Of a stretch of 64,000 nucleotides of DNA, positions 30,474-47,555 are shown one piece after another. This DNA comes from Acutalibacteraceae bacterium. Its GTDB lineage: Bacteria; Bacillota; Clostridia; Oscillospirales; Acutalibacteraceae. Each line of letters begins with the position of its first letter. Position 1 is the first letter of the stretch. Below the pieces are notes generated by a model that was not told the origin of the DNA, ran no database searches, and worked only from the letters and a program-made list of their open reading frames with translations. The translations under genes were made by a program, and so were the position numbers. Location: contig JAZSJQ010000057.1 of NCBI GenBank assembly GCA_045534445.1, positions 24,548 to 88,547 of the forward strand, written 5' to 3'.

Positions 30474-32318
30474 ATGGCAGGACCTATGGGAAGAGGTCTT
30501 GGACCTCGCGGATTTCTTACCGATGAAGAAAAGCAGAATATGCCGAAGGTTACAAAGGGGCTTCTTCTGCGTATTTTAAGCTACTTAAAGCCCTACTGGC
30601 TCCAGTTTGTTTTTGTGTTCGTCGCCATTCTCCTGTCGGCGGGTGTGGGACTTCTCCCCTCCATCATTACAGGACGAATCGTTGACGAGGCACTTATCGG
30701 CAACGACCTTGCACTACTTATAAAGCTTCTGCTTATGGCTTTTGCAACTCTGACCATATCTCAGGTCATCGGAGTGCTGGAAAACTACATAAACGCATGG
30801 ATATCCCAGCGCATCATCTTCGATATGAAGAACCAGATGTATGACCATCTCCAGCACATGCCCCACTCCTTCTTTACCTCCGAAAAGCAGGGCGATATCA
30901 TAACACGAATGAACACGGACATCAGCGGCGTAAGCTCTGTTATTTCCGGCACTCTGTCTAGCATAGTCAGCAACGTGGCGACAGTCGTTACCACCCTTGT
31001 GGCTCTCTTTACAATGAGCTGGAAGCTGGCACTTGTGGGCATTGTGGTAATCCCTCTGCTTATTCTTCCTACAAAGAGCGTCGGTAAGACAAGATGGAAG
31101 CTTCTGACCGAAAGTCAGGCAAAGAACGACGAGATGAATCAGCTTGTAAACGAGACTCTCAGCGTCAGCGGTTCGATGCTCGTAAAGCTCTTTACAAGGG
31201 AAAAGAAAGAGTATGACCGCTTTGTGGACGTAAACGAAGAGGTTACTCAACTGGCACTTAAGGAACAGCGAAGCGGTAAGTGGTTTATGGTCATTATGGG
31301 TATGTTTAGCCAGATAGGACCTCTGCTGATTTATTTTGCAGGCGGTCTGTTCATTATAAAAGGGCTCGACCCCACCCTTACGGTCGGTGTCATCACCGCT
31401 ACCGTTGCCCTTATCAATCGCCTTTATCGACCCGTTCAGTCGCTTTTAAACATTCAGGTGGACTTTACCCGTTCCCTTGCACTCTTTACCCGTATATTCG
31501 ATTATTTCGACAAGGAGAACACCATTGTCTCCCCCGAAAACGGAAAGAAGCCCCATGTTGCCTGCGCTGACATCGATTTTGATCACGTTGCTTTCTCCTA
31601 CACTCCCGAAAAGCCCCTGCTGACGGATATCGATTTTACCGTTCCCGGCGGGCAGATGTTTGCCATAGTCGGCCCTTCAGGCTCGGGTAAGTCTACGGTT
31701 GTAAACCTTATTCCGAGACTTTATGATTGTCTCGACGGCTGTGTTACTGTAGGCGGTGTTGACGTGCGCGATTTTGACCTTACATATCTGCGCGAGAAGA
31801 TTGGCGTTGTAACTCAGGACACTTACCTTTTCAACGGCACCATAAAAGAAAATCTCCTGTATGCAAAGGACGATGCAACACAGGAAGAGATAGAAAATGC
31901 CTGCCGAACTGCAAGCATTCACGATTTTATTGTAAATCAGCCCGACGGTTACGACACAATGGTGGGCAACCGAGGCTTGAAGCTCTCAGGCGGTGAGAAG
32001 CAGAGACTTTCCATTGCCCGTGTCATACTCAAGAATCCCGATATTCTCATTCTGGACGAAGCTACCTCCGCCCTTGACTCGATCTCCGAAAACGCCATTC
32101 AGGACGCTCTCGAGGTGCTTATGGACGGCAGGACAAGCATTGTCATCGCTCACAGGCTTTCTACAATTCTCAAAGCAGATAAGATTCTTGTTGTAAAGGA
32201 CGGAGTCATTGCAGAGCAGGGTACTCACGAGGATCTGCTGGCTAAGGGAGGCACTTACAGAGATCTGTACGAGACACAGTTCAGACAAATTCTCGAATAT
32301 GAGGCTGAAAAGAAGTAG
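30474..32318 (+). CDS. ABC exporter, fused permease/ATPase (MsbA-like type I exporter)
   Basis: Six-TM N-terminal half, then Walker A GPSGSGKST, signature LSGGEKQR and Walker B ILILDEATSALD. Confidence 0.93.
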   Translation: MAGPMGRGLGPRGFLTDEEKQNMPKVTKGLLLRILSYLKPYWLQFVFVFVAILLSAGVGLLPSIITGRIVDEALIGNDLALLIKLLLMAFATLTISQVIGVLENYINAWISQRIIFDMKNQMYDHLQHMPHSFFTSEKQGDIITRMNTDISGVSSVISGTLSSIVSNVATVVTTLVALFTMSWKLALVGIVVIPLLILPTKSVGKTRWKLLTESQAKNDEMNQLVNETLSVSGSMLVKLFTREKKEYDRFVDVNEEVTQLALKEQRSGKWFMVIMGMFSQIGPLLIYFAGGLFIIKGLDPTLTVGVITATVALINRLYRPVQSLLNIQVDFTRSLALFTRIFDYFDKENTIVSPENGKKPHVACADIDFDHVAFSYTPEKPLLTDIDFTVPGGQMFAIVGPSGSGKSTVVNLIPRLYDCLDGCVTVGGVDVRDFDLTYLREKIGVVTQDTYLFNGTIKENLLYAKDDATQEEIENACRTASIHDFIVNQPDGYDTMVGNRGLKLSGGEKQRLSIARVILKNPDILILDEATSALDSISENAIQDALEVLMDGRTSIVIAHRLSTILKADKILVVKDGVIAEQGTHEDLLAKGGTYRDLYETQFRQILEYEAEKK

Positions 32319-32324
32319 AATAAT

Positions 32325-33113
32325 ATGATATTCACAAAAGAACAACTGAAAAAACAGATTGCCGAAATGGGCATTTCCCCCTCGGACACTGTACTGATAC
32401 ATACATCCATGCGTGCTGTGGGCGAGGTTGAAAACGGAGCTGACGGAGTTATCGATGCATTTATTGAGTATCTCCGTGACGGTCTGTTTCTTGTTCCTAC
32501 CCACACATGGGACAGGGTTTATTCCGAAAAGCCTGTATATGATGTAAGGAGCACTGTTCCTTGCATCGGCGCTCTGCCGAGGGCTGCGGCTTTCAGGCAG
32601 GACGGTGTGCGATCCCTGCACCCCACGCACTCTGTATGGGCTTGCGGCAAAGGTGCTGAGGATTTTATTAAAAACGAAGAAAACGCACTCTCCCCTTGTC
32701 CTCCCGGCTTTGTATGGGATCGTCTTGCAGATGTGAATGCAAAAATACTTCTGATCGGTGTTGGAAACGATAAAAATACCTTTATTCACGCCGTCGAAGA
32801 GGTTGCTGACATTCCCGACAGACTCGCGGAAAATCCCTTTGAGGTAACGATTCTCGACTACGACGGCAATGCTCACCGTCACCCCTATCGCTGCCATTGC
32901 TGCAGCAGATCGGACGATGTGTCGAGGCAATTTGTGAATTTTGACAAGCCGCTTGTCAAACTTGGCGCACAATCCTTCGGCAAGCTCGGTAATGCTGATG
33001 TGCGTATTGTTGACGCCGCTCTCTGCAAGGAGATTATTCTTCGGATTTATTCACGGGCAGACAGCGACCTGTGCATAGAGCTGTGTGAGATACCAACGGA
33101 GTTTTATATGTGA
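32325..33113 (+). CDS. AAC(3)-family aminoglycoside N-acetyltransferase-like protein
   Basis: ...GISPSDTVLIHTSMRAVGEVENGADGVIDAF...LVPTHTW...SLHPTHSVWA... are typical AAC(3) fold motifs. It starts 6 nt after the exporter stop. Confidence 0.8.
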   Translation: MIFTKEQLKKQIAEMGISPSDTVLIHTSMRAVGEVENGADGVIDAFIEYLRDGLFLVPTHTWDRVYSEKPVYDVRSTVPCIGALPRAAAFRQDGVRSLHPTHSVWACGKGAEDFIKNEENALSPCPPGFVWDRLADVNAKILLIGVGNDKNTFIHAVEEVADIPDRLAENPFEVTILDYDGNAHRHPYRCHCCSRSDDVSRQFVNFDKPLVKLGAQSFGKLGNADVRIVDAALCKEIILRIYSRADSDLCIELCEIPTEFYM

Positions 33114-33144
33114 AAAGCCACGGCGGAATTACCGCCGTGGCTTT
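33114..33144 (+). terminator. Intrinsic terminator after the AAC(3)-like gene
   Basis: AAAGCCACGGCGG-AATTA-CCGCCGTGGCTTT, immediately after the TGA. Confidence 0.8.
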
Positions 33145-33149
33145 ACTTA

Positions 33150-33290
33150 TGCTTCGCCTTTGGTGAAATATTTTGCCTATCGGCAAAATGTGAAATTAAA
33201 TCCACCCACCGCCGCGACGATTTCACTCAAGCTTTGCTCGAATTTCACATTGCAGAGCAATATTTCTCCCCCCCGAAAGGGTGGATTTAG
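33150..33290. repeat. Structured spacer rich in GTGAAAT/ATTTCAC repeats and nested inverted repeats
   Basis: GTGAAAT at 33163 and 33190; ATTTCAC at 33220 and 33242. ATTTTGCC/GGCAAAAT lie at 33170/33182, TTTGCTC/GAGCAA at 33233/33255, and AAATCCACCC/GGGTGGATTT at 33198/33279. Confidence 0.6.
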
Positions 33291-33291
33291 T

Positions 33292-33326
33292 AAAAAAAGA
33301 CCTTGTCTTTCGACAAGGTCTTTTTT
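33292..33326. terminator. Bidirectional intrinsic terminator downstream of tRNA-Tyr
   Basis: A7-GACCTTGTC-TTTC-GACAAGGTC-T6. Confidence 0.9.
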
Positions 33327-33327
33327 C

Positions 33328-33412
33328 TGGTGGGAGCGGGTGGATTCGAACCACCGAAGTCGTCGACAACAGATTTACAGTCTGCCCCCTTTGGCCACTC
33401 GGGAACACTCCC
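33328..33412 (-). tRNA. tRNA-Tyr (anticodon GUA), long variable arm, CCA encoded
   Basis: The reverse complement GGGAGTGTTCCCGAGTGGCCAAAGGGGGCAGACTGTAAATCTGTTGTCGACGACTTCGGTGGTTCGAATCCACCCGCTCCCACCA folds as a cloverleaf, with anticodon loop CTGTAAA. Confidence 0.93.
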
Positions 33413-33440
33413 ATGTTCCTATTTATTCAATTGCACGATC

Positions 33441-33516
33441 TGGAGCCGGTGGACGGACTCGAACCACCGCTCTGCTCGTCACAAATCAGCTGCTCTACCA
33501 ACTGAGCTACACCGGC
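33441..33516 (-). tRNA. tRNA-Thr-like (anticodon UGU) with non-canonical anticodon arm, CCA encoded
   Basis: The reverse complement is GCCGGTGTAGCTCAGTTGGTAGAGCAGCTGATTTGTGACGAGCAGAGCGGTGGTTCGAGTCCGTCCACCGGCTCCA. The acceptor, D and T arms are canonical, and the anticodon loop is TTTGTGA. The sequence is confirmed by all three overlapping ORF-track translations. Confidence 0.8.
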
Positions 33517-33574
33517 ACGCCGTGAATCCCAACCTCGCTTACGAGGTTACTGCCCTTTCGCAGAACGCTTGCTT

Positions 33575-34431: not shown

Positions 34432-35664
34432 ATGGACGCAGTCTTTATAGCTGATTCAATAGAGAAGCTTCATACTCCCGAACAAACTCTGATCGTCGGC
34501 ATTGACGGGCTTGGCGGTGCAGGAAAAAGCACTGTTTCAAAAGAGATCATAGCTGTTCTTCGCAGTAAGGGGTACGATGTCGCTCTTCTGCACATTGACG
34601 ATTTCATTCACCCGAAATCTATACGTTATAATAACGATTTCGCCCCTTGGGAGTGCTATTATAATCTCCAGTGGAGGTATGATTATCTGATAAATGAGGT
34701 TATTGGTGCTTTAAAATCAGGCGAGTCGCTCTGCAAAAGCATTGAGCTTTATGATAAAGACAATGACACATATCTCAATCAGAGCATTTGTCTTAAAAAT
34801 GGCGGCATACTGATTATAGAGGGGATTTTTCTTCAGAGAAGCGAGCTTTCAGATATTTTCGACTATATGATATATATCGATGTTCCCGAAAAAACGAGGC
34901 TTAAAAGAGTGCTGTCAAGGGACGGGTATATAGGAGACAGTGAGCAGATAAAGGAAAAGTACGAAAGCAGATATTTCCCTGCTGAGCGTTATTACGTCAA
35001 GACCTGTTCACCTGCCGAAAATGCAGATTATACCGCAAAGAGTGTTAAATGGCTGTTTTTTGACTTGGGCGGTACTGTTTATGATGAAAGTCTTTCCGAC
35101 AGGCAGAGAATAGAAGGGTTACTTGAAAAAGCATCTTCGGAAATTACTGCCGACAAGTTTTATGAGCATATGAAGGTTTCTGCAATGACTTTTGCAGAAT
35201 CCCCCTTCTCCGAAGCACGAAATTATTTCGGTATTGCGAAAAATGTACCCTATTCAAATGAGAAGGAATTTCTTTACCCTCATGCTGTTGATGTAATTAA
35301 GGTTCTATCGGAAAAGTACAGTCTTGCCGTTCTTGCAAATCAGCCTGTCAATACTATGGACAGACTTAAAATGGACGGGCTTTATGGTTGTTTCAAAATA
35401 ATCCTTCTCTCAGAGTACGAGAATATGTTTAAGCCTGATATCGGCTTTTTTGAATATGCACTCAGGAAAGCTGGCTGTGAACCTTCTGAAGCTGTTATGA
35501 TAGGCGACAGGCTTGATAATGACGTTTATCCTGCCAAGAAACTCGGTATGATTACTGTCAGAATAAAGCAGGGGCTTTTTTCGGTGCAGGAGGCTGCAAG
35601 CGAAAAATATACGCCTGATTACGAGGTCGATAGTCTTGCCGAGCTGCTCGAATTGGAACTATAG
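34432..35664 (+). CDS. Fusion of a P-loop (uridine kinase-like) domain and a HAD-IA hydrolase domain
   Basis: P-loop GIDGLGGAGKST. HAD motif I is FFDLGGTVYDE (a DxG variant), and motif IV is MIGDRLDNDV. Confidence 0.75.
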   Translation: MDAVFIADSIEKLHTPEQTLIVGIDGLGGAGKSTVSKEIIAVLRSKGYDVALLHIDDFIHPKSIRYNNDFAPWECYYNLQWRYDYLINEVIGALKSGESLCKSIELYDKDNDTYLNQSICLKNGGILIIEGIFLQRSELSDIFDYMIYIDVPEKTRLKRVLSRDGYIGDSEQIKEKYESRYFPAERYYVKTCSPAENADYTAKSVKWLFFDLGGTVYDESLSDRQRIEGLLEKASSEITADKFYEHMKVSAMTFAESPFSEARNYFGIAKNVPYSNEKEFLYPHAVDVIKVLSEKYSLAVLANQPVNTMDRLKMDGLYGCFKIILLSEYENMFKPDIGFFEYALRKAGCEPSEAVMIGDRLDNDVYPAKKLGMITVRIKQGLFSVQEAASEKYTPDYEVDSLAELLELEL

Positions 35665-35680
35665 CATATAATATGAAGAA

Positions 35681-35710
35681 ATGCAGACAGCCATACGGCT
35701 GTCTGCATTT
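35681..35710 (+). terminator. Intrinsic terminator after the kinase-HAD gene
   Basis: ATGCAGACAGCC-ATAC-GGCTGTCTGCAT followed by TT. Confidence 0.8.
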
Positions 35711-35728
35711 GACACCTAATCAGTCACC

Positions 35729-35778
35729 GAAGTTCGCCTTCAGCGAACTTGCCGACAGCTTCCCTTTAAGGGGAAGCC
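35729..35778. repeat. Double-hairpin intergenic element, copy B
   Basis: AAGTTCGC-CTTCA-GCGAACTT followed by GCTTCCC-TTTAAG-GGGAAGC and then T6. The second hairpin contains the bioY stop codon. Confidence 0.7.
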
Positions 35779-36320
35779 TTTTTTATTACAGTCAATATTC
35801 GCTTTGCAATAGCAGACGCAGGCAATAACAGCACAAGGTCTATAGGCAGTGCAACAAGCATTGTAAGCCTCAATGCATCGAGTATTTCTGCGTCCGTGGC
35901 GTTTATATACAGCTTCATTATAAGGCAGAAGTACGCAAGTCCCACTGCATAAATGCAGGCAAGACCTGTTATACCCGAAAAATACAAATAACCTGCGGAG
36001 GGTGTTTTCCTTCGGTGGGCAACGAAACCTGCAACAAAGGCACATAAAATAAAGCCGATTATGTATCCGAAGCCGGGTTTAAGGACATACATAAGTCCTC
36101 CTCCCTGCGCAAAAACAGGAAGTCCCGCAAGTCCCATCAGCATATACGTCAGCGCACTTGCCGCACCGCCCCTTGCGCCCAGCACCTGCCCTGCAAGCAC
36201 CACGAAAAGTGATTGCAGGGTTATGGGTACAACAAGATCAATTTTTATGAATGCGCCTACTGCTATAAGCGCTGTAAACAAGCCGCACAGGACTATCTGA
36301 GCAGTTCTGTTATTCCGCAT
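35766..36320 (-). CDS. bioY: Biotin transporter BioY (ECF S-component)
   Basis: MRNNRTAQIVLCGLFTALIAVGAFIKIDLVVPITLQSLFVVLAG...GLPVFAQGGG... is the typical BioY sequence pattern. Confidence 0.9.
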   Translation of the reverse strand: MRNNRTAQIVLCGLFTALIAVGAFIKIDLVVPITLQSLFVVLAGQVLGARGGAASALTYMLMGLAGLPVFAQGGGLMYVLKPGFGYIIGFILCAFVAGFVAHRRKTPSAGYLYFSGITGLACIYAVGLAYFCLIMKLYINATDAEILDALRLTMLVALPIDLVLLLPASAIAKRILTVIKKASP

Positions 36321-39300
36321 CGGCTGTGTCCGTCTCTTCGATTACAAGCTCTTCAGAGGGAGCGCTCCACTGCTCACGAAGCTCAGCGGCACACTGACAT
36401 ACTCTTTCGATAAGAGCATTATCAGCTGTTTTATCGCCCTTACCGGGCTTTAATCCAAGTTCTTTTATGCGAGCAACAAGTGCCTTTGCGGCATTCTCCT
36501 TATCCTGATAATATGCGGATGCACGCACGCGGATAAACTTCCAGCCAAGACGCTCAAGAACCGACTGGCGGCTCATTGCAACGCTTATTTCTTCATCGGT
36601 CATTGCAGTCTCTCCGTCGCACTCAATGGCAACTCTCTTTCCGCCGCCTGTGCATATCATAGGCACGATATATGTTCCAACCTTTTCACGGAAAGCTACC
36701 TCGAAGCCCTCGTTTATAAGGGCATTGCTCAGCTCTTTTTCCATGGAGGACACCGCTGTGGGAGTAACCTTTTCAAGCGCCTTGGCGGTTGCCTCCGGGT
36801 CTATTGCATGAGAGATAAGCTTGAGTCTTATATCGTCACCCTTCAAATCTACATTGGGATCAAGGGAATGAACGACCCAGAGCTGATCCTTTGCTCGGCT
36901 TGCGGCAACGTTGTAACGCTTTGCGTAAACATCGTTGTAGCCCTCTCTTCTGGTCTGCAGGCTGGTTCCGTCACCCTTGCCCGCATCAACAAGGGAAATG
37001 AAGATAACATCTCTCTCATCGCCCTGGAAATACGCAGGGTTGCCGCAGAGTATCTGACGTTCTCTGTACTGGCTTTCGGTTATTCTTTCGCGGAGCATTC
37101 TGTCTATCAGAACGCCCTGTTCATCTCCTATCATGGTGATGACACCGAATGTAAGTCCCTTGTATTCTTTCTGCTTCATACAGGCGCAGATGAGAGAAAC
37201 TACGGCATTGGCTTCATTCTTATTTGTCTTCTTGCCGCTGGGTGCGCCGTCCTGCACTCTGTATTCGACCATCGCAGGCTTTACGGTTATACTGCCCGAA
37301 TCGCGCAAGGGACAGATAAGTCCGTTATATGTATGGAAATTCGAGAAGTTGATTATATCTGTAGCGCATCTGAAATGCTCACGAAGGGTTATAGGCTCGT
37401 AGTTTGCCTTTCCGAGATCATAGATTGACACAAGTTCGTCGTACATGGAGGCATTCTTTACGCCTGTTAAGAACTCTGCGTGGAGCTTCTGGGAGGTCTC
37501 AAGGTCCATTCCGACAGGAGTAGGGCTGACCTGCTTGTCATCGCCGACAACTATTACCTTCTTTGCAATGTACAGTCCGATAAGTCCGCTTAAATCCGCC
37601 TGGCTTGCTTCGTCTATGATGAGAACATCGAATTTCTCATCACCCGGCTCAAAATATTCTGCGACGGAAGGAAGGGGCATGATCCATACGGGAACGCTTC
37701 TGCGGCAGGCTTTCATTGCACGGCGAAGCTCACCCGATGCAAGAAGCTGCTCTGCCCTCTTGCCCGTTCCCTTGCCCACTCTCTTGACTAAGGTTGCCCA
37801 TGTGGCAAGGGCAGATTTGCGGTTGGGATCGCGCATGGTGCGAAGCTCTGCGCTCCATGCTCTGCGTGTAATAAGCTCTCTTGTAACTGTGGAGTAGCTC
37901 TTTGTAAGCTCTGAAATGCGCTCCTGAATGGATTCAATATCCTTGCCGAGTCTTGTTTCAAGCTCACCGCGGAGCTGTGCGCGTATCCAATGGATCTTAT
38001 AGTCTGAGGGCAGACTGCTCTCTCCGTTAAATCCGCGTCTTCCAGCTATTTCCTGTGCCCAAAGAGGACATATTTCCGAAAGCTTTACGATAAGTTCACA
38101 GCGTGTTCTATAGGCGTTTCTCTTTGCGCAGACTCGCTCATAGCTGTGGAGTGCTTCATTATATGCATCAGCATCTCTGTTTTCAATAGCTACGCGCATG
38201 GCAGTTATCATGGGCGCAAAGTCACGCTCATAAGGCACCAGCGTATTGGCAGCATTTCGGAGGGTCTCAAGACAATCAGATCTGTCTCCTCTGGTAAATT
38301 CAAGCTGTACATAGCTGAGAAGGTCGGTCTTCAGTGCATAGAATATGGATTCGACCTCTCCAAGCATACGGGTCTGCAAGGGAATGGTCTCGAAGTAGCG
38401 AGCAAAATCAAATCCAAGCTCCTCAAGCTTATTCTGTATTACCTGCCATGAGTTTGCGTACCATGTAAGCCAATCAGTAACACTTGACCAAATCTTCTGT
38501 GCCGTCTCTTCAGGACGTGCAGAAGATGATATATCAGGACCGCCTGCGCTTCTTACTGCCTTTTCCCATCGATTAAGAAGCTTCTTTTTGCCCAGCAGGT
38601 ATGCGTGATATCTGCTGAGTATCTCAACCTCGGAACGGGTATCAGGCTTTTCGCCGTTTATGACACAGCGCTCAAGCACGGGCTTCCATTTGGGATTGAG
38701 CATTATTTTAAGCCAGTTTATCTTTTCGCCATCTATATCCTCCAGCATATCTGCGAAAACAGGAGTAATTTCGGGAATTATCAGATCATCGGGTATCTGC
38801 GGGTCGGTGTCGATTATATCTCCACGAAGCTCAGCATACAATTTGTTGAGCTCGGGAAGCTGACCGTCAATGGACGCAAATACGCCTGTGATACCGCCTT
38901 CTGCAATTCCTGCCTGTGCAAGGGAAAGCTGCCAGCTTTCAGCTCTTGACATTCTGTCGGCTTCTATTTTTATGCTCTTATAGACTTCTCCGACCTGTGC
39001 GGTGTCTCTGCTTCCGTTGTCCTTCCAGTAACCTACTCCCTCTGTCTTTATGCTCTCGCCTGTACCCTCTGCGACCTCGCAGCATGCCTTGAAGCGCATT
39101 GAATCAAGCAGGACAGATGCATCGGGGGCTCCGATAGTAAGTATTTTTTCATCGTTTTCTGTAAGAGCGGCATTGGAAGAATAAAGAGTTTTAAGCTCGT
39201 CCTCACTAAGGGGCAGAGGCGTTCCAAGTCCTACGCTGTCGGGAATGAAAGCCTCCTCCTGCAGGTCACAGATAAGTTCTGCTGCCTGCTTGGGAGTATA

Positions 39301-40797
39301 ATACTTGCCGTCAACTTCAATCTCCTCGTATTCCTTTCTTACAAGGTTCACAAGGCTTGAACGGGCGTTGATAAGATCAGCTATAACGCGTCTTCTTTCC
39401 TGTTCATAACGGTCTGCCTCTTCATCAAGGGTCTCTGCATTATAGGCAGACATATAGTCATTTATCGTATTCAGAGAATTTTCAAGCTGCTTCTGATTAT
39501 CATCAGAAATGCTTACGCAGAGAGGTCTTATAGGCTCGCTTATTTTATCGCGGAGAACCGACAGCGCCTTTGAAGTCTGGCTGGTTACAAGAACGCTCTG
39601 TCCGCGGCTGAGCAGATCGCCTATTACGTTTGAAATAGTATGGGTCTTACCTGTTCCCGGAGGTCCCTGCACGATTACAGCAGGATTCTCTTTTATCTTT
39701 CTGGCAATGAGAAGCTGTTCACGGTTTGCCTGTTTTTCAAGAAGGAAATCAGGGTCGATTCCGTTTACGGATATAAGCTTTTCTGCTATACTCTGTTCTC
39801 TCGGCTCTGTTTCGGTATGTACACCCTCCCCAAGAATACTGAGCAGTGATGGAGAAAACTCCTCAGCAGTTTCAATATCATCAAGAATTTTTTCAGTCAT
39901 GGCGATATAGCCCGAATTTCGAGAGCGTGTAAACATTACGCTCCCTCGGGAAACAACATATTTTGCCTTGGATTCTTCATTGGTAAATTCACAGTCAAGG
40001 GATATGGTGTTGCAAAGCCTTGTCAGAAAATCATCAAGAGGTTCTTTGTCAAAGGCATGGATACCGCTGTCCTCAAGCTCGTTTGAAAAGCCCGAGAGAG
40101 TCTGGGTCTCAATATTCGGCAGCATCCTCAGAAGTCTTGTATTAAGCGTTGCGGGAGTATCGCAATCGCAGATTCTGAACATGGGCTTCTGTGCGTCAAA
40201 TTCAAGCATTACACGCTCAATGATAAGAGGATGATGGATCTTTGTCCCGTCTTCAAAACTGCAGGTCAGCATTCCGTCACCTATGACAAGCTCCATTCTG
40301 TCCTTTTCTCTGCTCATCTGAGACCACAGGTCGTAGAGCTTATCATACACTGCTCGGGATCTTGCGGCAGGCTCTGCATCATATCTCCATGCGTCGTGCA
40401 GTTCCATCCAGCCTGTGAGTATATCACGGCGCTCGAGGTCATCAGCAAAAAGCTCCGTGCGTATTTCATCGCTTTCTGCATCGTCACAGAATTCACGCTT
40501 TTCCTTTACTGTTATTCTTTTGAAGGGATCGTCCCATCCATCTTCGACCCAACCGTAAAGAGCGGCAGGCAGCATCGGACATGGCGGCACCTCTGCCTTT
40601 TCAACGCTAAGAATAGCAGTGGTCTCCGAAAAAGCTTCATCGCTTGTCTGTACTACTTTTATTGTGTTATGCACAGGCAGTGCGAACAGCTCAAGGCTGA
40701 ATGGGTAATCTGTGTAATTGAGATTTATGTCGCACTTGCGTTCTACAAGCGCTTTGACATAGCTGAATATCTGTCTAAGCTGCTTTCTTGCTTCCAT
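36310..40797 (-). CDS. 1495-aa SF1 (Upf1/DNA2-like, AAA_11/AAA_12) helicase fused to a C-terminal Vsr/DUF559-like endonuclease domain
   Basis: Motif I GPPGTGKT (39643-39666), motif II VLIIDEASQ (about 37600-37630), then VVGDDKQVSP, LREHFRC, FQGDERDVIF and YNVAASRAKDQLWVV. The C-terminus VAIECDG...LERLGWKFIRV is REase-like. Confidence 0.85.
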   Translation of the reverse strand: MEARKQLRQIFSYVKALVERKCDINLNYTDYPFSLELFALPVHNTIKVVQTSDEAFSETTAILSVEKAEVPPCPMLPAALYGWVEDGWDDPFKRITVKEKREFCDDAESDEIRTELFADDLERRDILTGWMELHDAWRYDAEPAARSRAVYDKLYDLWSQMSREKDRMELVIGDGMLTCSFEDGTKIHHPLIIERVMLEFDAQKPMFRICDCDTPATLNTRLLRMLPNIETQTLSGFSNELEDSGIHAFDKEPLDDFLTRLCNTISLDCEFTNEESKAKYVVSRGSVMFTRSRNSGYIAMTEKILDDIETAEEFSPSLLSILGEGVHTETEPREQSIAEKLISVNGIDPDFLLEKQANREQLLIARKIKENPAVIVQGPPGTGKTHTISNVIGDLLSRGQSVLVTSQTSKALSVLRDKISEPIRPLCVSISDDNQKQLENSLNTINDYMSAYNAETLDEEADRYEQERRRVIADLINARSSLVNLVRKEYEEIEVDGKYYTPKQAAELICDLQEEAFIPDSVGLGTPLPLSEDELKTLYSSNAALTENDEKILTIGAPDASVLLDSMRFKACCEVAEGTGESIKTEGVGYWKDNGSRDTAQVGEVYKSIKIEADRMSRAESWQLSLAQAGIAEGGITGVFASIDGQLPELNKLYAELRGDIIDTDPQIPDDLIIPEITPVFADMLEDIDGEKINWLKIMLNPKWKPVLERCVINGEKPDTRSEVEILSRYHAYLLGKKKLLNRWEKAVRSAGGPDISSSARPEETAQKIWSSVTDWLTWYANSWQVIQNKLEELGFDFARYFETIPLQTRMLGEVESIFYALKTDLLSYVQLEFTRGDRSDCLETLRNAANTLVPYERDFAPMITAMRVAIENRDADAYNEALHSYERVCAKRNAYRTRCELIVKLSEICPLWAQEIAGRRGFNGESSLPSDYKIHWIRAQLRGELETRLGKDIESIQERISELTKSYSTVTRELITRRAWSAELRTMRDPNRKSALATWATLVKRVGKGTGKRAEQLLASGELRRAMKACRRSVPVWIMPLPSVAEYFEPGDEKFDVLIIDEASQADLSGLIGLYIAKKVIVVGDDKQVSPTPVGMDLETSQKLHAEFLTGVKNASMYDELVSIYDLGKANYEPITLREHFRCATDIINFSNFHTYNGLICPLRDSGSITVKPAMVEYRVQDGAPSGKKTNKNEANAVVSLICACMKQKEYKGLTFGVITMIGDEQGVLIDRMLRERITESQYRERQILCGNPAYFQGDERDVIFISLVDAGKGDGTSLQTRREGYNDVYAKRYNVAASRAKDQLWVVHSLDPNVDLKGDDIRLKLISHAIDPEATAKALEKVTPTAVSSMEKELSNALINEGFEVAFREKVGTYIVPMICTGGGKRVAIECDGETAMTDEEISVAMSRQSVLERLGWKFIRVRASAYYQDKENAAKALVARIKELGLKPGKGDKTADNALIERVCQCAAELREQWSAPSEELVIEETDTADAE

Positions 40798-40820
40798 AAT
40801 GACAGTCCTTCCTGTATATC

Positions 40821-40845
40821 AAAACCCCGGTTTTGCCGGGGTTTT
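40821..40845. terminator. Bidirectional intrinsic terminator after the surface-protein gene
   Basis: AAAACCCCGG-TTTTG-CCGGGGTTTT. It lies only about 24 nt upstream of the helicase start codon. Confidence 0.85.
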
Positions 40846-40889
40846 GATTTTATCATTGTTCTTTTACCCGTTTTTTCGGAATGGTCATA

Positions 40890-43001
40890 TCAATCCCAGT
40901 TATTGAATTCGCCCTCATCGCTGAACTGAATGTCACCGAAAGATGCAGGCTGCTGAGAATATGTATGTCTTTCAGGGGTGGTCGGCTGGGATGCCTGTCG
41001 CTGTGTCACTTCCTCATACTGAGGCTCGGGAATTGTTCTTCTTGCCGATGCTTCGTAGTAATAAGCTTTATCTTCGTCATCTGAATACTTGCTCTCTCCC
41101 ATGGGCGCTCTCTTGACAATAAGGATTATGGCAATTGCAAGTCCGATTACAAGAATGGCAATACCGATTATCATTACATGAATGAGATTTACACCCTCAT
41201 CAATACGGTCATCCTCGTCGGGTATTGTATTAATGTTGAGTTCACCCATAAGGGTCAGTATTTCAGAATAGTATCTGTCGGCTGTTACCTGATCTGTATC
41301 TGTTCTGCTCAGTGCTTTCGCTTCAGCAACCTTATTCATCAATATATTATACCTGTCCTGAGGATAAGGAGTTGGGTCAATGTCTTCAACAGTAGCAATG
41401 ATCCTGTCAAGAGCAGTAAAGTTTGCGATAAGCACAAGATTGGTCATTGAGCTTTCAAGGGCAGCCTGCGCCTCATCGATATTCTGCTGGGAGCTTTCTT
41501 CGTCCGCAATGACTCTTTCAAGCTCTGCTATTGCAGTCTCGACATATTTCCATGAAGAATCGGTATACACACTTCTGTCTACCGACTTTACTCTTTCAAG
41601 CAGTTCCTTTGCATAGGTGCTGTCACCGCGGCGGACAAGTGCTTCCAGTGAGCCTGTAAGCTGCTCTGCAGCAGAATTGATTATAGTCTCATCTGCCTGA
41701 ATGGAAATAAGATTATCAAGCTCTGCTGCGTATTTCTGCATATTGTTCCATGAGGAAGGAGTATAGTCCTCTTCCCTCAGGGATTTGGCAATCTTGAGAA
41801 CGTTGAAGGGGGTCGTCTGAATGTTGTTAATAACAACAGTAGTTGTGGATTCATTGCCCGCCTTATCCTTTGCAACTATCACATACTCACCGTTTCTGAA
41901 TGCTACAAAGGACGGGGTATAGATTCCAACATATTCTCCGTTTACCGTTACATTAAGGATGCTGATATTATCCTTGACATTAAAGGTTACTGTTACATTT
42001 TCGTCAGTAATCGATGATGTGGATTTTTTGATATTGTCTATAACAGGTGCAGTACTGTCAAGTACTACGCCTGCAGAGGGGATCTCCTTTGAAACGTTGC
42101 CTGCATTGTCAATTGCACGGGCATATACGTTTCCTATGAAATCCTTCTCGAAAACAGGCTTCTTTGCAGGGTCATATCTGTTCCATCCTGCTTCGCTGAT
42201 ATATCCTCCGCTTTCAACAAGCTGATACTCGTAATATGCGATACCACTCTGGGAATCCGTTGCTCCGTCAATGGAACAGGTAAGAGAACCCGTAAAGAAG
42301 CTGGAGAAATTAGATGTTCCGTATGTAAGAGCGCCTTTTTCATTGCCAAAGGCAATTGAAAGAAGGGAAATATCGGGAGGTATCATATCAAAGTTAGCTA
42401 TGCTCATGGATACCTCTTCAGAACAATTCTGTGCGCGGTCAATGGTTCTTCCGTATACGACGCAGTTTGAATTTACGGTGAACTCGCCGTAATACTCTAT
42501 CCATGCGCCATCAGCACCTACACGATATTCAGTGCGGAGATATCCGGATTCCGCATCACTTCCGGATATCAGTCTGACGGTCTGCTCACTGTTGGTCCAT
42601 GCTGTTGTGGAAGGTACGATAGTCGGTGCAGAAGGTGCTTTTTTATCTATGCAGTTTACTCTTGCTTCTGCAAGAGGAGACTGTATGCTGTTTCCGTCAA
42701 CAACTTTTGCAGATATACCGACATTCTCGGTAACAACAAATGATTCGATGTACTCTGTCCATTCGCCGCCGTCTACACAATAGTAGATCTTTGCGTTGCC
42801 GTCCAGTGTATCGCCTGTGGTAACAGTTACCGTAACTGAGCTGTTGGTCGGCTCTGTAGGGAACTGAATCACAGGCGCGCTCAATGGCTGCGCAGGTTCC
42901 GGTGCTGTCGTATCTGTGGCGCTTTCTGATGCCGATGCTGATACTGAACATATACTGAACATCAGAAAAAGCACTGCGATCATTGTAATCAGTTTTTTCA
43001 T
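40890..43001 (-). CDS. Cell-surface protein with Ig-like/CHB_HEX_C-like repeats and FIVAR-like helical repeats, a C-terminal TM anchor and a cytoplasmic tail
   Basis: Signal peptide MKKLITMIAVLFLMFSICSVSASA, repeats such as KIYYCVDGGEWTEY and EYRVGADGAWIEYY, YTPSSWNNMQKYAAEL and YTDSSWKYVETAIAEL, and a TM helix LIHVMIIGIAILVIGLAIAIILIV. Confidence 0.7.
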   Translation of the reverse strand: MKKLITMIAVLFLMFSICSVSASASESATDTTAPEPAQPLSAPVIQFPTEPTNSSVTVTVTTGDTLDGNAKIYYCVDGGEWTEYIESFVVTENVGISAKVVDGNSIQSPLAEARVNCIDKKAPSAPTIVPSTTAWTNSEQTVRLISGSDAESGYLRTEYRVGADGAWIEYYGEFTVNSNCVVYGRTIDRAQNCSEEVSMSIANFDMIPPDISLLSIAFGNEKGALTYGTSNFSSFFTGSLTCSIDGATDSQSGIAYYEYQLVESGGYISEAGWNRYDPAKKPVFEKDFIGNVYARAIDNAGNVSKEIPSAGVVLDSTAPVIDNIKKSTSSITDENVTVTFNVKDNISILNVTVNGEYVGIYTPSFVAFRNGEYVIVAKDKAGNESTTTVVINNIQTTPFNVLKIAKSLREEDYTPSSWNNMQKYAAELDNLISIQADETIINSAAEQLTGSLEALVRRGDSTYAKELLERVKSVDRSVYTDSSWKYVETAIAELERVIADEESSQQNIDEAQAALESSMTNLVLIANFTALDRIIATVEDIDPTPYPQDRYNILMNKVAEAKALSRTDTDQVTADRYYSEILTLMGELNINTIPDEDDRIDEGVNLIHVMIIGIAILVIGLAIAIILIVKRAPMGESKYSDDEDKAYYYEASARRTIPEPQYEEVTQRQASQPTTPERHTYSQQPASFGDIQFSDEGEFNNWD

Positions 43002-46031: not shown

Positions 46032-46991
46032 TTACTTCTTATCGCAAATTATCTCTACTGAATCTGCAAGTATATTTTCATATCTATCACAAACAGTAAC
46101 AGTAAGGATTATCTGCTTTGCGTCAAAGTCGAAGCTGTCGGGGCAGATATTTACTGCTTCGCCCTTTTTGCTTAATATTTCGGAGAATACAAATTCACAA
46201 CCGTCCCCCTCTGCCGAGACACGGTAAGAACCGTAATTGTCCATTGTATAATAAATGCGCTGGCTCAGAGGAGTACAGACGATTTTTTCGAGTTTTATAG
46301 TATCGCCGTTATTAAGAGTGATCTCCTGCCCGATATTATATATTTCTGTTTCGCTGTCAAGCAGGCTGACATTGAGAGAAAAATCATAACTCCAATCGCC
46401 ATCTATTTTTACCATGCTTTCATCGACCGTCATCAAATTGACTGAATTAAAGCATACAACAAAATCGTGGATATCACTGAGCTTTTCTTCCGTGAGGTCA
46501 TATTCGATGGTGTACAAAAGTATTCCGTCGTAATTTTCACAGTATCCTATCCACGTACACGGCATTGCCTTGCCGTCAATCATCAGGATCCCCAAGCCTT
46601 CAGGCGATATCACATTAGCGTTCGGATATTTTTCACTTTGGAAACTGAAGGTCACATACAGCTTTCCGTTTTCGTAAAGAGCTTCGCTCAAAGTGATTTT
46701 AAGTCCGCCGTACTCTATGCTTCGATCCACTTTTTCTGCGTAGCTGTCTGTTGCTGAGCTGAACTCAACACTTTCACTGAGTCTTACTTCTCTGAATTTT
46801 CCCACAGCATACACTGTTCCTGTGAAGAGCACCACCAAGACTATAACTGCCGCCAAAACCGTTACCATTCGCTTTGCCGAAAATGATTTTCTGCTTTCAT
46901 TGAGAATTGTATTAATAGTATGGCTTTTAAAGTCTGCCGAGGCTCTTATATGTTTCTCTGCTTTGATGTATGTATCTTTAAAGTTCTTCAT
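46032..46991 (-). CDS. DUF4179-type anti-sigma factor-like membrane protein
   Basis: A short cytoplasmic N-terminus, one TM helix (MVTVLAAVIVLVVLFTGTVYAV) and an extracytoplasmic beta-rich domain. Its start overlaps the ECF sigma stop (ATGA). Confidence 0.7.
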   Translation of the reverse strand: MKNFKDTYIKAEKHIRASADFKSHTINTILNESRKSFSAKRMVTVLAAVIVLVVLFTGTVYAVGKFREVRLSESVEFSSATDSYAEKVDRSIEYGGLKITLSEALYENGKLYVTFSFQSEKYPNANVISPEGLGILMIDGKAMPCTWIGYCENYDGILLYTIEYDLTEEKLSDIHDFVVCFNSVNLMTVDESMVKIDGDWSYDFSLNVSLLDSETEIYNIGQEITLNNGDTIKLEKIVCTPLSQRIYYTMDNYGSYRVSAEGDGCEFVFSEILSKKGEAVNICPDSFDFDAKQIILTVTVCDRYENILADSVEIICDKK

Positions 46992-47479
46992 TATATTCCC
47001 TCCATATTAAGCATTTTTCTTAGTTTCTGTTTCGCTCTTTCAAATCTTGTACCAACGGTTGATAATGGAATACATAATATCTCTGATATTTCCTTTGTGT
47101 TGTATCCCTCAAAATAATATAGATATACTATGATGCGGTATTTCTTTTCAAGAGCATATACTGCTTCGTGAACGGCACGCTGATCGTTATCATCAAATGC
47201 AATTTCTTCATTCATGTATTCCTCATATGGTGACATTCTTTTCAATTTTCGCAGCTGATTTTTTGCCTGATTTACTGTAACTCTGATAAGCCATGCTTTC
47301 TCGTGCTTTTTATCATTGAATTTTGGTTTGCATTTATAAAGCTTTGTAAAAACCTCCTGTACAATATCTTCTGATTCTGCAAGACTTCCAAGAATGTTAT
47401 AAGCAATGTGAATCAAACTATCGGCATACTCATCAATGCAGCATTCAATATATTCTATCTTGCTCTCTGATTTATTCAT
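46991..47479 (-). CDS. ECF (sigma-70 family) RNA polymerase sigma factor
   Basis: Region 2 ...ESEDIVQEVFTKLY... and region 4 ...YYFEGYNTKEISEILCIPLSTVGTRFERAKQKL. The ATG of MNKSESK... is preceded by GGAGGTG. Confidence 0.9.
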   Translation of the reverse strand: MNKSESKIEYIECCIDEYADSLIHIAYNILGSLAESEDIVQEVFTKLYKCKPKFNDKKHEKAWLIRVTVNQAKNQLRKLKRMSPYEEYMNEEIAFDDNDQRAVHEAVYALEKKYRIIVYLYYFEGYNTKEISEILCIPLSTVGTRFERAKQKLRKMLNMEGI

Positions 47480-47555
47480 CGCATCACCTCCTTCATTAAT
47501 AAAACACGTCAGCATTGTCGCCTATGCTCATATAACGGGAATAATTTTTATACGC

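What the first reader, a model, noticed from the sequence alone, without database searches (positions are those of the whole stretch)
36310..40797. Solitary 1495-aa SF1 helicase fused to a Vsr/DUF559-like endonuclease, with ~370 aa of unassigned N-terminus and a ~650-aa insertion between motifs I and II
Seen: all Upf1/DNA2-type SF1 motifs are present (GPPGTGKT, VLIIDEASQ, VVGDDKQVSP, LREHFRC, GVITMIGDEQ, FQGDERDVIF, YNVAASRAKDQLWVV). Motif I lies at about aa 378-385 and motif II at about aa 1040, so a very large mostly helical insertion separates them. The last ~120 aa (...GTYIVPMICTGGGKRVAIECDGETAMTDEE...LERLGWKFIRVRASAYY) look like the restriction-endonuclease-fold DUF559/Vsr-type domain. 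I could match the N-terminal 370 aa to nothing.
Established: single-polypeptide SF1 helicase-nuclease fusions have been described as anti-phage or anti-plasmid systems (Nhi; Mokosh pairs a helicase with a PLD nuclease).
Inference: this is a candidate stand-alone nucleic-acid immunity protein of an unclassified subtype. Its neighbours are unrelated (a surface protein upstream and bioY downstream).
Basis: partly seen in the sequence, partly recalled or inferred. Interest (0 to 1): 0.65.

Follow-up and report, generated by a model that had tools for sequence, protein, structure and literature searches.

The report
Hhe-like helicase with degenerate nuclease

Summary
The ORF (36310-40797, minus strand, 1495 aa) and its architecture are real. 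It has an N-terminal domain that Pfam does not model, an Upf1-like SF1 helicase with all motifs, a RecA1 domain split by about 600 helical residues, and a C-terminal MTES_1575/DUF559 (Vsr-like) domain.

It belongs to a large unnamed family spread over many phyla. That family is a sister of Hhe, ProA and PDC-S37 but scores far below all three curated cut-offs. Canonical members keep an intact Vsr-type motif. Four of six that I inspected lie beside CRISPR-Cas, type I RM or Wadjet, so the family as a whole looks defensive.

The window's copy differs. It sits in a monophyletic Acutalibacteraceae-type clade of 31 clusters. In that clade all three conserved catalytic positions are replaced: the beta2 Asp, the His and a second Asp (P1379, M1399, A1407 here). 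They are 89/89, 82/89 and 89/89 conserved elsewhere and 0/30 in the clade.

The helicase motifs stay intact and the whole protein is under purifying selection (dN/dS about 0.07). The locus is syntenic in eight further relatives and lies about 7 kb from the rpoA-secY cluster, with no mobile or defence genes nearby.

Best reading: a vertically inherited helicase, probably without nuclease activity, derived from a defence-type ancestor.

The parts
36310..40797 (-). Whole ORF, 1495 aa, including the stop codon
   Evidence: full-length homologs at E=0
39823..40797 (-). N-terminal alpha/beta domain, aa 1-325. It is conserved across the family and no Pfam model covers it.
   Evidence: AF2 pLDDT 81.3, pTM 0.68. 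No PDB fold match, best E 0.39. A profile of it finds 2623 clusters at 50% identity; in all but a few of the 150 best it lies at the N-terminus. The core, aa 108-203, aligns with a plasmid DUF3320 helicase at E 2e-7.
39733..39822 (-). Low-confidence linker, aa 326-355
   Evidence: pLDDT below 50 over aa 326-365
39433..39732 (-). First part of RecA1, aa 356-455, with motif I (GPPGTGKT 378-385; nt 39643-39666) and motif Ia (TSQTSKA 405-411)
   Evidence: invariant columns 374-390
37678..39432 (-). Helical module of about 585 aa (aa 456-1040) inserted in RecA1
   Evidence: AF2 pLDDT 86.6, nearly all helix. Only weak coiled-coil matches in the PDB, best E 0.04. Its length is conserved across the family.
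36778..37677 (-). Rest of RecA1 plus RecA2, aa 1041-1340, with motifs II (DEASQ 1058-1066; nt 37600-37626), III, IV, V and VI
   Evidence: PDB sequence matches to Sen1, Upf1 and IGHMBP2 cores
36463..36753 (-). Vsr-like MTES_1575/DUF559 domain, aa 1349-1445, with substituted catalytic positions P1379 (nt 36661-36663), M1399 (nt 36601-36603) and A1407 (nt 36577-36579)
   Evidence: 66.5 bits here against 102-112 bits in canonical members
36310..36462 (-). Poorly conserved C-terminal tail with an acidic end, aa 1446-1495, plus stop codon
40806..40813 (-). AGGAAGGA ribosome-binding site 8 nt upstream of the ATG
40818..40848 (.). G+C-rich hairpin between the surface-protein gene and the helicase. 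On the minus strand it reads CCCCGGCAAAACCGGGGTTTT, a likely terminator of the upstream gene.
35766..36320 (-). bioY. Its start overlaps the helicase stop by 11 nt, so the two are probably co-transcribed. A terminator-like hairpin follows at 35679-35710.
   Evidence: the same overlap is seen in L001 and L092

Best explanation
The gene encodes an Upf1-like SF1B helicase from a large unnamed family. The family plan is a conserved N-terminal domain, a RecA1 domain split by a helical module of about 600 aa, RecA2, and a C-terminal Vsr-type domain. This family is a sister of the Hhe, ProA and PDC-S37 anti-phage helicase-nucleases.

Shown. The window's copy belongs to a derived, monophyletic clade of Oscillospirales (Acutalibacteraceae type). 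In that clade the ATPase and helicase motifs are intact, but three conserved catalytic residues of the Vsr-like domain are replaced. The gene is inherited vertically at a fixed core-chromosome locus and is under strong purifying selection.

Inferred. The protein still burns ATP to translocate 5'->3' along, or unwind, nucleic acid. Its Vsr-like domain now only binds DNA or has a structural role and no longer cuts. The gene has been exapted from a defence-type ancestor into a stable host function, either a nucleic-acid transaction of the host or a form of interference that does not need its own nuclease. It is not a mobile cut-and-destroy immunity protein.
For: Architecture and motifs.

Family size and spread: more than 2000 hits, with full-length relatives at 33-37% identity; at least 578 loci among species-representative genomes across many phyla.

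Not Hhe, ProA or PDC-S37. Canonical family members also fail those models.

Catalytic positions: position 1379 is D in 89/89 distant members and 0/30 in the clade; position 1399 is H in 82/89 and 0/30; position 1407 is D in 89/89 and 0/30. These columns align with the D, H and D of the DUF559 structure 3HRL. Position 1379 also aligns, in a weak match (E 0.29), with the PD-motif Asp region of the Hjc resolvase 1GEF.

A single derived loss: the clade is monophyletic, and both its sister P0032 and the outgroup keep canonical residues.

Purifying selection against L001: dN/dS 0.067 overall, 0.11 in the Vsr-like domain, 0.01 in the helicase core.

Synteny: the surface protein lies upstream in L001, L002, L004, L078 and L091. 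BioY or an MFS transporter lies downstream in L001, L003, L092, L002, L005, L078 and L091. Neighbour identities fall in step with the helicase.

Core context: the rpoA and secY genes lie 7-16 kb away, the surroundings are metabolic genes, and the ten neighbours and ten large ORFs scanned matched no integrase, transposase or defence family. The gene's GC is 0.48 against 0.466 for the window.
Against: No biochemistry is available. E1353, E1392 and D1394 are retained, and PD-(D/E)xK enzymes are known to relocate catalytic residues, so residual or remodelled nuclease activity cannot be excluded.

The lineage is sparsely sampled. Only about 6 relatives carry the neighbouring PRK-HAD fusion, so 'present in all relatives' rests on nine genomes including the window, and no empty site could be looked for.

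Synteny and purifying selection do not exclude a defence role. dS is close to saturation, so the dN/dS values are rough. The tree is neighbour-joining without support values.
Confidence: 0.5

Rival explanations
1. One reading: a stand-alone helicase-nuclease immunity protein. The helicase loads on foreign DNA or RNA and the C-terminal Vsr-like domain cleaves it, as presumed for Hhe.
For: Same overall plan as Hhe, ProA and PDC-S37, with homology over about 500 C-terminal residues. Hhe is an experimentally validated single-gene defence (PMC11482910). Canonical family members lie beside CRISPR-Cas, type I RM or Wadjet, and one is on a plasmid. E1353, E1392 and D1394 are retained, and the domain is under purifying selection.
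Against: The beta2 Asp, the His and the second Asp are lost in all 31 clade members. The MTES_1575 score is 66 bits against 102-112 in canonical members. The locus is syntenic and vertically inherited in core chromosome, with no defence or mobile neighbours.
Confidence: 0.22
2. A defence protein that does not use its own nuclease. The helicase/translocase is the effector, for example by stripping or unwinding phage replication intermediates or by futile ATP hydrolysis. Alternatively it senses foreign nucleic acid for an unlinked effector. The dead Vsr domain serves as the DNA-recognition module.
For: The helicase core is extremely constrained (dN/dS 0.01) and the pseudo-nuclease domain is retained. 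Ancestry is defence-associated. Hhe appears to respond to phage DNA-metabolism functions rather than to single proteins.
Against: No effector is linked in any of the 80 loci. Long-term synteny at a housekeeping locus is unusual for defence genes. There is no direct evidence.
Confidence: 0.18
3. The whole family, not only this clade, is a genome-maintenance or RNA-quality-control helicase-nuclease. Its occasional defence-island neighbours would then be coincidence.
For: Two of six canonical members have ordinary neighbourhoods. Among 135 nearest neighbours, only about 2 type I methylases and 2 SNF2-like proteins were defence-like. A related DUF4011 helicase is a core gene in P. aeruginosa (bioRxiv 10.1101/2022.11.11.516204). 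The nearest solved helicase cores are Sen1, Upf1 and IGHMBP2.
Against: The distribution is patchy across many phyla. Several members lie directly beside CRISPR-Cas, RM, Wadjet, transposases or integrases. The nearest named relatives are all defence proteins.
Confidence: 0.1

Closest known systems
Hhe (single-gene helicase plus Vsr-nuclease defence; PADLOC PDLC02194, NCBIfam NF042953)
   Same: One polypeptide, an Upf1-like SF1 helicase with an interrupted RecA1, and a C-terminal MTES_1575/Vsr domain. The match covers aa 945-1453.
   Different: 148 bits against a cut-off of 2000. Pfam finds no DUF4011 domain. The protein is about 300-400 residues shorter than the two Hhe models (1797 and 1911 positions). 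Three conserved Vsr-type residues are missing here. The locus is a syntenic core-chromosome site.
ProA (NCBIfam NF058533, 'anti-phage protein ProA')
   Same: Best NCBIfam match, 192 bits over aa 959-1461, covering helicase domain 2 and the nuclease domain.
   Different: The cut-off is 1500 bits. Only the C-terminal third aligns well. I found no source paper in the library.
PDC-S37 (PADLOC candidate single-gene system)
   Same: Best PADLOC match, 185 bits over aa 1024-1460. Canonical family members score 190-240 bits.
   Different: The best stretch covers only positions 906-1354 of the 1550-position model. The family is a sister group, not a member.
MTES_1575-type proteins and plasmid 'DUF3320 domain-containing' helicases (for example Sphingobium pSF1 WP_140043497)
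   Same: The N-terminal core (aa 108-203, E 2e-7), helicase and Vsr domain are shared, and the overall order is the same. That protein lies beside an RM system on a conjugative plasmid.
   Different: Those proteins are about 1900 aa, carry a C-terminal DUF3320 domain and keep an intact nuclease motif.
Eukaryotic Upf1 / Sen1 / IGHMBP2 / DNA2 helicase cores
   Same: Same SF1B motif set. These are the only solved structures with sequence similarity (E 3e-8 to 1e-3).
   Different: Similarity is confined to the RecA domains. They have no Vsr domain, and their N-terminal and inserted domains differ.
Mokosh MkoA/MkoC; Nhi
   Same: The helicase core matches MkoC and MkoA at 105-115 bits.
   Different: Nhi matches at only 16.6 bits around the P-loop.

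Membership tests
Upf1-like SF1B helicases (Pfam AAA_11 + AAA_12) | Motifs I, Ia, II, III, IV, V and VI all present, and both Pfam domains above the gathering score | tested here: met
   AAA_11 70.4 bits and AAA_12 52.2 bits against a cut-off of 27; motif positions; these columns are invariant in the family
Vsr / DUF559 / MTES_1575 restriction-endonuclease fold | The domain model scores above the gathering cut-off | tested here: met
   MTES_1575 66.5 bits against 38.2; DUF559 25.6 against 20.6
Vsr / DUF559 / MTES_1575 restriction-endonuclease fold | Catalytic residues present: beta2 Asp, E-x-D on beta3, His, second Asp | tested here: not met
   E1392 and D1394 are kept. Position 1379 is P (D in 89/89 distant members), 1399 is M (H in 82/89) and 1407 is A (D in 89/89). 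The columns were mapped onto 3HRL and Hjc.
Hhe | NCBIfam equivalog cut-off (2000 bits) | tested here: not met
   148.2 bits; PADLOC Hhe 115 bits
Hhe | N-terminal DUF4011 domain | tested here: not met
   No DUF4011 hit at E<=1. A profile-profile test against Pfam was not possible.
Hhe | Confers phage resistance as a single gene | not testable with these tools
   Needs plaque assays
ProA | NCBIfam equivalog cut-off (1500 bits) | tested here: not met
   192.5 bits, best stretch aa 959-1461 only
PDC-S37 | Full-length match to the PADLOC model | tested here: not met
   185 bits; the best stretch covers model positions 906-1354 of 1550. Canonical relatives behave the same way.
Unnamed family defined here (N-terminal domain, split SF1 helicase, Vsr domain; about 1500-1800 aa) | End-to-end homology, including the N-terminal domain and the inserted module | tested here: met
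   99-100% query coverage at 33-37% identity for most of the distant relatives listed; few gaps along the length; the N-terminal profile finds 2623 clusters
Defence-island / mobile defence gene | Neighbourhood enriched in defence or mobile genes, with variable presence among relatives | tested here: not met
   For the window clade: core-gene neighbours and conserved synteny. For canonical relatives the picture is mixed: 4 of 6 lie in defence or mobile contexts.

The most novel reading that the evidence does not exclude
A defence-type Hhe-like helicase-nuclease was captured by an Oscillospirales lineage, lost its nuclease chemistry in a single event, and has since been kept as a core, nuclease-dead helicase. 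Its N-terminal domain has no match among solved structures. This would be a bacterial case of an immunity gene domesticated into a host nucleic-acid function or into a nuclease-independent form of immunity.
Probability: 0.3. Interest if true: 0.65.

Novelty: new variant of a known kind. Interest (0 to 1): 0.45.

Why it matters
The analysis identifies a large family with no dedicated model in PADLOC v2 or NCBIfam 20. It comprises about 700 clusters at 50% identity under a strict threshold (E <= 1e-30) and about 2600 under a loose one (E <= 0.001). The family is related to Hhe, whose mechanism is still unknown.

Its N-terminal domain and its 600-aa helical insert are modelled with confidence but have no solved structural relatives, so they are good targets for structure determination.

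The window clade offers a natural 'nuclease-dead' comparison with canonical members. Testing the two side by side could show whether the helicase or the nuclease carries the biological activity. It could also show whether defence genes of this type can be domesticated.

For annotation, 'helicase plus DUF559' should not be scored as a defence nuclease without checking the catalytic columns.

Tried and rejected
1. A conserved partner gene. All-against-all clustering of 704 neighbour ORFs from 82 loci found no cluster in more than 7 loci. The 135 nearest neighbours hit 192 Pfam families, none in more than 3 members. Rejected.

2. The upstream 703-aa protein as a partner. It has a signal peptide, surface-protein domains (weak FIVAR and chitobiase C-terminal matches here; OmpL47-type in its L091 homolog) and a C-terminal TM anchor. 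It marks synteny and is not a partner.

3. The AP_endonuc_2 gene next to the helicase in L002 and L091 as a replacement nuclease. Its best NCBIfam matches are sugar epimerases, and it is absent from the window. Rejected.

4. The N-terminal domain as DUF4011. There is no Pfam hit. Homologs of the related plasmid protein's N-terminus also carry no Pfam annotation. Unresolved.

5. Fold searches. The N-terminal domain against the PDB gave a best E of 0.39, and against BFVD one marginal hit with TM 0.25. The insert against the PDB gave a best E of 0.04. None is informative.

6. The origin of the name 'ProA'. Three literature queries found nothing relevant.

7. An empty-site test in relatives. The lineage is too sparsely sampled, and the one extra relative recovered also carries the gene.

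8. Phage carriage. No full-length match in 50,697 phage records. Among plasmids, one true plasmid carries a full-length member.

9. Compositional anomaly. None found.
Full report
**Observation.** The ORF at 36310-40797 on the minus strand is 1495 aa with an ATG start. An AGGAAGGA ribosome-binding site lies 8 nt upstream. A G+C-rich hairpin at 40818-40848 separates it from the upstream gene. Motif I is at 378-385 and motif Ia at 405-411. Motif II is at 1058-1066, not 'about 1040'. The remaining motifs run up to residue 1309. Pfam finds AAA_11 in two pieces, AAA_12 at 1126-1309, and MTES_1575 at 1353-1444 (66.5 bits against a cut-off of 38.2), with DUF559 weaker. Nothing matches aa 1-350.

**Family.** A search of 5.8 billion proteins gave more than 2000 hits. 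The best 120 fall into two groups. A close group (P0001-P0031) is 49-100% identical to the window protein. After a gap come full-length relatives at 33-37% identity, nearly all covering at least 95% of the query. These come from Bacillota, Chloroflexota and other phyla, and where a name is given it is generic ('AAA domain-containing protein', 'very-short-patch-repair endonuclease'). Conservation runs the whole length with few gaps, so the N-terminal region and the insert are family features.

A scan of one genome per species found at least 578 loci. They span Bacillota, Chloroflexota, Acidobacteriota, Planctomycetota, Verrucomicrobiota, Myxococcota, Bdellovibrionota, Pseudomonadota, Fusobacteriota, Spirochaetota, Deinococcota and Actinomycetota. 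The best hit, at 91% identity, is an Acutalibacteraceae MAG, which places the window's organism.

The nearest named models are ProA (192 bits against a cut-off of 1500), Hhe (148 against 2000) and PADLOC PDC-S37 (185 bits, C-terminal third only). Canonical family members also fail these models. The family is therefore an unnamed sister of these defence helicase-nucleases. Hhe itself is a validated single-gene defence whose mechanism is unknown (PMC11482910).

**The two unassigned regions.** AlphaFold2 was run with family alignments. For aa 1-365 it gave a confident alpha/beta model (pLDDT 81.3, pTM 0.68). The model has a long helix at 121-163 followed by beta sheets, and a disordered linker at 326-355. 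Foldseek found no PDB match (best E 0.39, TM at most 0.15) and only one marginal viral hit. A profile of this domain finds 2623 clusters at 50% identity (702 at E<=1e-30). In all but a few of the 150 best hits it lies at the N-terminus, in proteins of about 1500-1800 aa or in shorter sequences that are probably fragments. Its core, aa 108-203, is also detectable in a 1937-aa 'DUF3320' helicase that lies beside an RM system on a Sphingobium conjugative plasmid.

The insert (aa 425-1050 modelled) is almost entirely helical at pLDDT 86.6. Its only PDB matches are weak ones to SMC-type coiled coils.

**The nuclease domain.** In 89 distant family members the motif reads SEFE...YRIDmV...aiECDGdrwH...eDmaRQaiLERLGWrFvRIR. 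Position 1379 is D in 89/89, position 1399 is H in 82/89 and position 1407 is D in 89/89. In the 30 other members of the window's clade these are 0/30, 0/30 and 0/30. The window itself has P1379, M1399 and A1407. E1353, E1392, D1394, Q1411, E1415, R1416, W1419, R1423 and R1425 are retained.

A profile of the canonical domain matches the DUF559 structure 3HRL (E 2e-6), and the same D, E-x-D, H and D columns are conserved there. It also weakly matches the Hjc resolvase, with position 1379 falling in the Hjc segment that carries the PD motif. From established knowledge of PD-(D/E)xK and Vsr enzymes, recalled rather than tested here, that Asp is a metal ligand and the His is catalytic. The MTES_1575 score falls from 102-112 bits in canonical members to 66 bits here.

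A neighbour-joining tree makes the clade monophyletic. Its sister (P0032) and the outgroup both carry canonical residues, so the loss is a single derived event.

The domain is nevertheless maintained. Against the 89%-identical ortholog, dN/dS is 0.11 in the Vsr-like domain, 0.067 overall and 0.01 in the helicase core. dS is near saturation, so these values are rough.

**Context.** Across 80 loci no partner gene is conserved. For canonical members:
- C. estertheticum: the gene lies beside a CRISPR-Cas locus, McrBC-like fragments and a NERD protein.
- C. manihotivorum: it lies among HEPN/MNT genes, transposases, an SNF2 helicase, a type I RM system and an integrase.
- Dehalobacter: it lies next to Fic and Wadjet.
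- A Fusobacteria plasmid copy lies near a type I RM system and an integrase.
- Tengunoibacter and Alicyclobacillus: the neighbourhoods are ordinary.

The window clade is different. A signal-peptide/TM surface protein lies upstream in the window, L001, L002, L004, L078 and L091, with a sugar-epimerase-like gene in between in some of them. BioY (window, L001, L003, L092) or an MFS transporter (L002, L005, L078, L091) lies downstream. The surface protein's identity falls in step with the helicase: 77, 57, 42 and 44% against 89, 65, 54 and 54%.

The window itself is core chromosome. The rpoA and secY genes lie at 48-54 kb, the other genes are metabolic, and the ten neighbours and ten large ORFs scanned matched no integrase, transposase or defence family. 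The gene's GC is 0.48 against 0.466 for the window. The bioY start overlaps the helicase stop by 11 nt, and the same overlap is seen in L001 and L092.

**Interpretation.** The family as a whole looks like a stand-alone helicase-nuclease of the Hhe type and is probably defensive. That inference rests only on its relatives and its neighbourhoods.

The window's copy keeps an evidently functional ATPase/helicase and an unusually constrained core. It has lost three conserved nuclease residues and behaves as a vertically inherited chromosomal gene. I therefore favour a nuclease-inactive helicase exapted from a defence-type ancestor (confidence about 0.5). The rivals are a still-active nuclease (0.22), nuclease-independent defence (0.18), and a housekeeping role for the whole family (0.10).

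The main caveats are these. There is no biochemistry. Three acidic residues are retained and could support a remodelled active site. Only nine genomes of the clade, including the window, were available. The tree has no support values.

**Novelty and score.** The architecture is a known kind. The family is unnamed, and the window clade is a nuclease-degenerate, syntenic variant. I rate it 'new variant of a known kind' with interest 0.45.

Noticed in passing
window 33328-33516 (-): tRNA-Tyr(GTA) and tRNA-Thr(TGT) lie about 3 kb from the helicase. The mechanical ORF 33085-33525 (+) overlaps them and is probably spurious.
   Followed up: partly
window 34432-35664 (+): A uridine-kinase/PRK-like P-loop domain fused to a HAD hydrolase (410 aa). 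The fusion is rare: only about 6 relatives in the 5.8-billion-protein collection. In L092 it is split into two ORFs of 322 and 79 aa.
   Followed up: partly
window 40890-43001 (-): A 703-aa surface protein with a signal peptide, surface-protein domains (weak FIVAR and chitobiase C-terminal matches; OmpL47-type beta-barrel in its L091 homolog) and a C-terminal TM anchor. It is kept next to the helicase across relatives down to 42% identity, so it serves as a synteny marker.
   Followed up: yes
window 30474-33113 (+): An ABC exporter (98% identical in L001) is followed directly by an aminoglycoside 3-N-acetyltransferase family gene.
   Followed up: no
window 11633-14101 (+): An 822-aa protein with an N-terminal RyR domain (E 2e-25) and no other Pfam match.
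   Followed up: no
window 46032-47515 (-): An ECF-type sigma factor (46991-47515) is followed by a DUF4179/DUF5643 protein (46032-46991), a likely sigma/anti-sigma pair.
   Followed up: no
P0107 (family member, 2374 aa): A canonical family member carries C-terminal RNA polymerase alpha-CTD and sigma-70 region 4 domains. Others carry DUF5655 or DUF3320 tails. The C-terminal extension is a variable module in this family.
   Followed up: no
L085 1-4600 and 8409-22902; L088 17693-24367: In C. estertheticum, the canonical relative lies between a type I CRISPR-Cas adaptation/Cas3 block on one side and, on the other, fragmented DUF2357/PDDEXK_7 genes, a group II intron RT and a NERD protein. In Dehalobacter, the relative is 2.7 kb upstream of a complete Wadjet JetABCD.
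   Followed up: partly
BFVD entry A0A8S5P0T8 (Myoviridae sp. ctakU3, 440 aa 'AAA domain protein'): This is the only structural hit for the N-terminal domain (E 5.6e-4, but TM only 0.25). It may be a fragment of a family member on a viral-metagenome contig.
   Followed up: no
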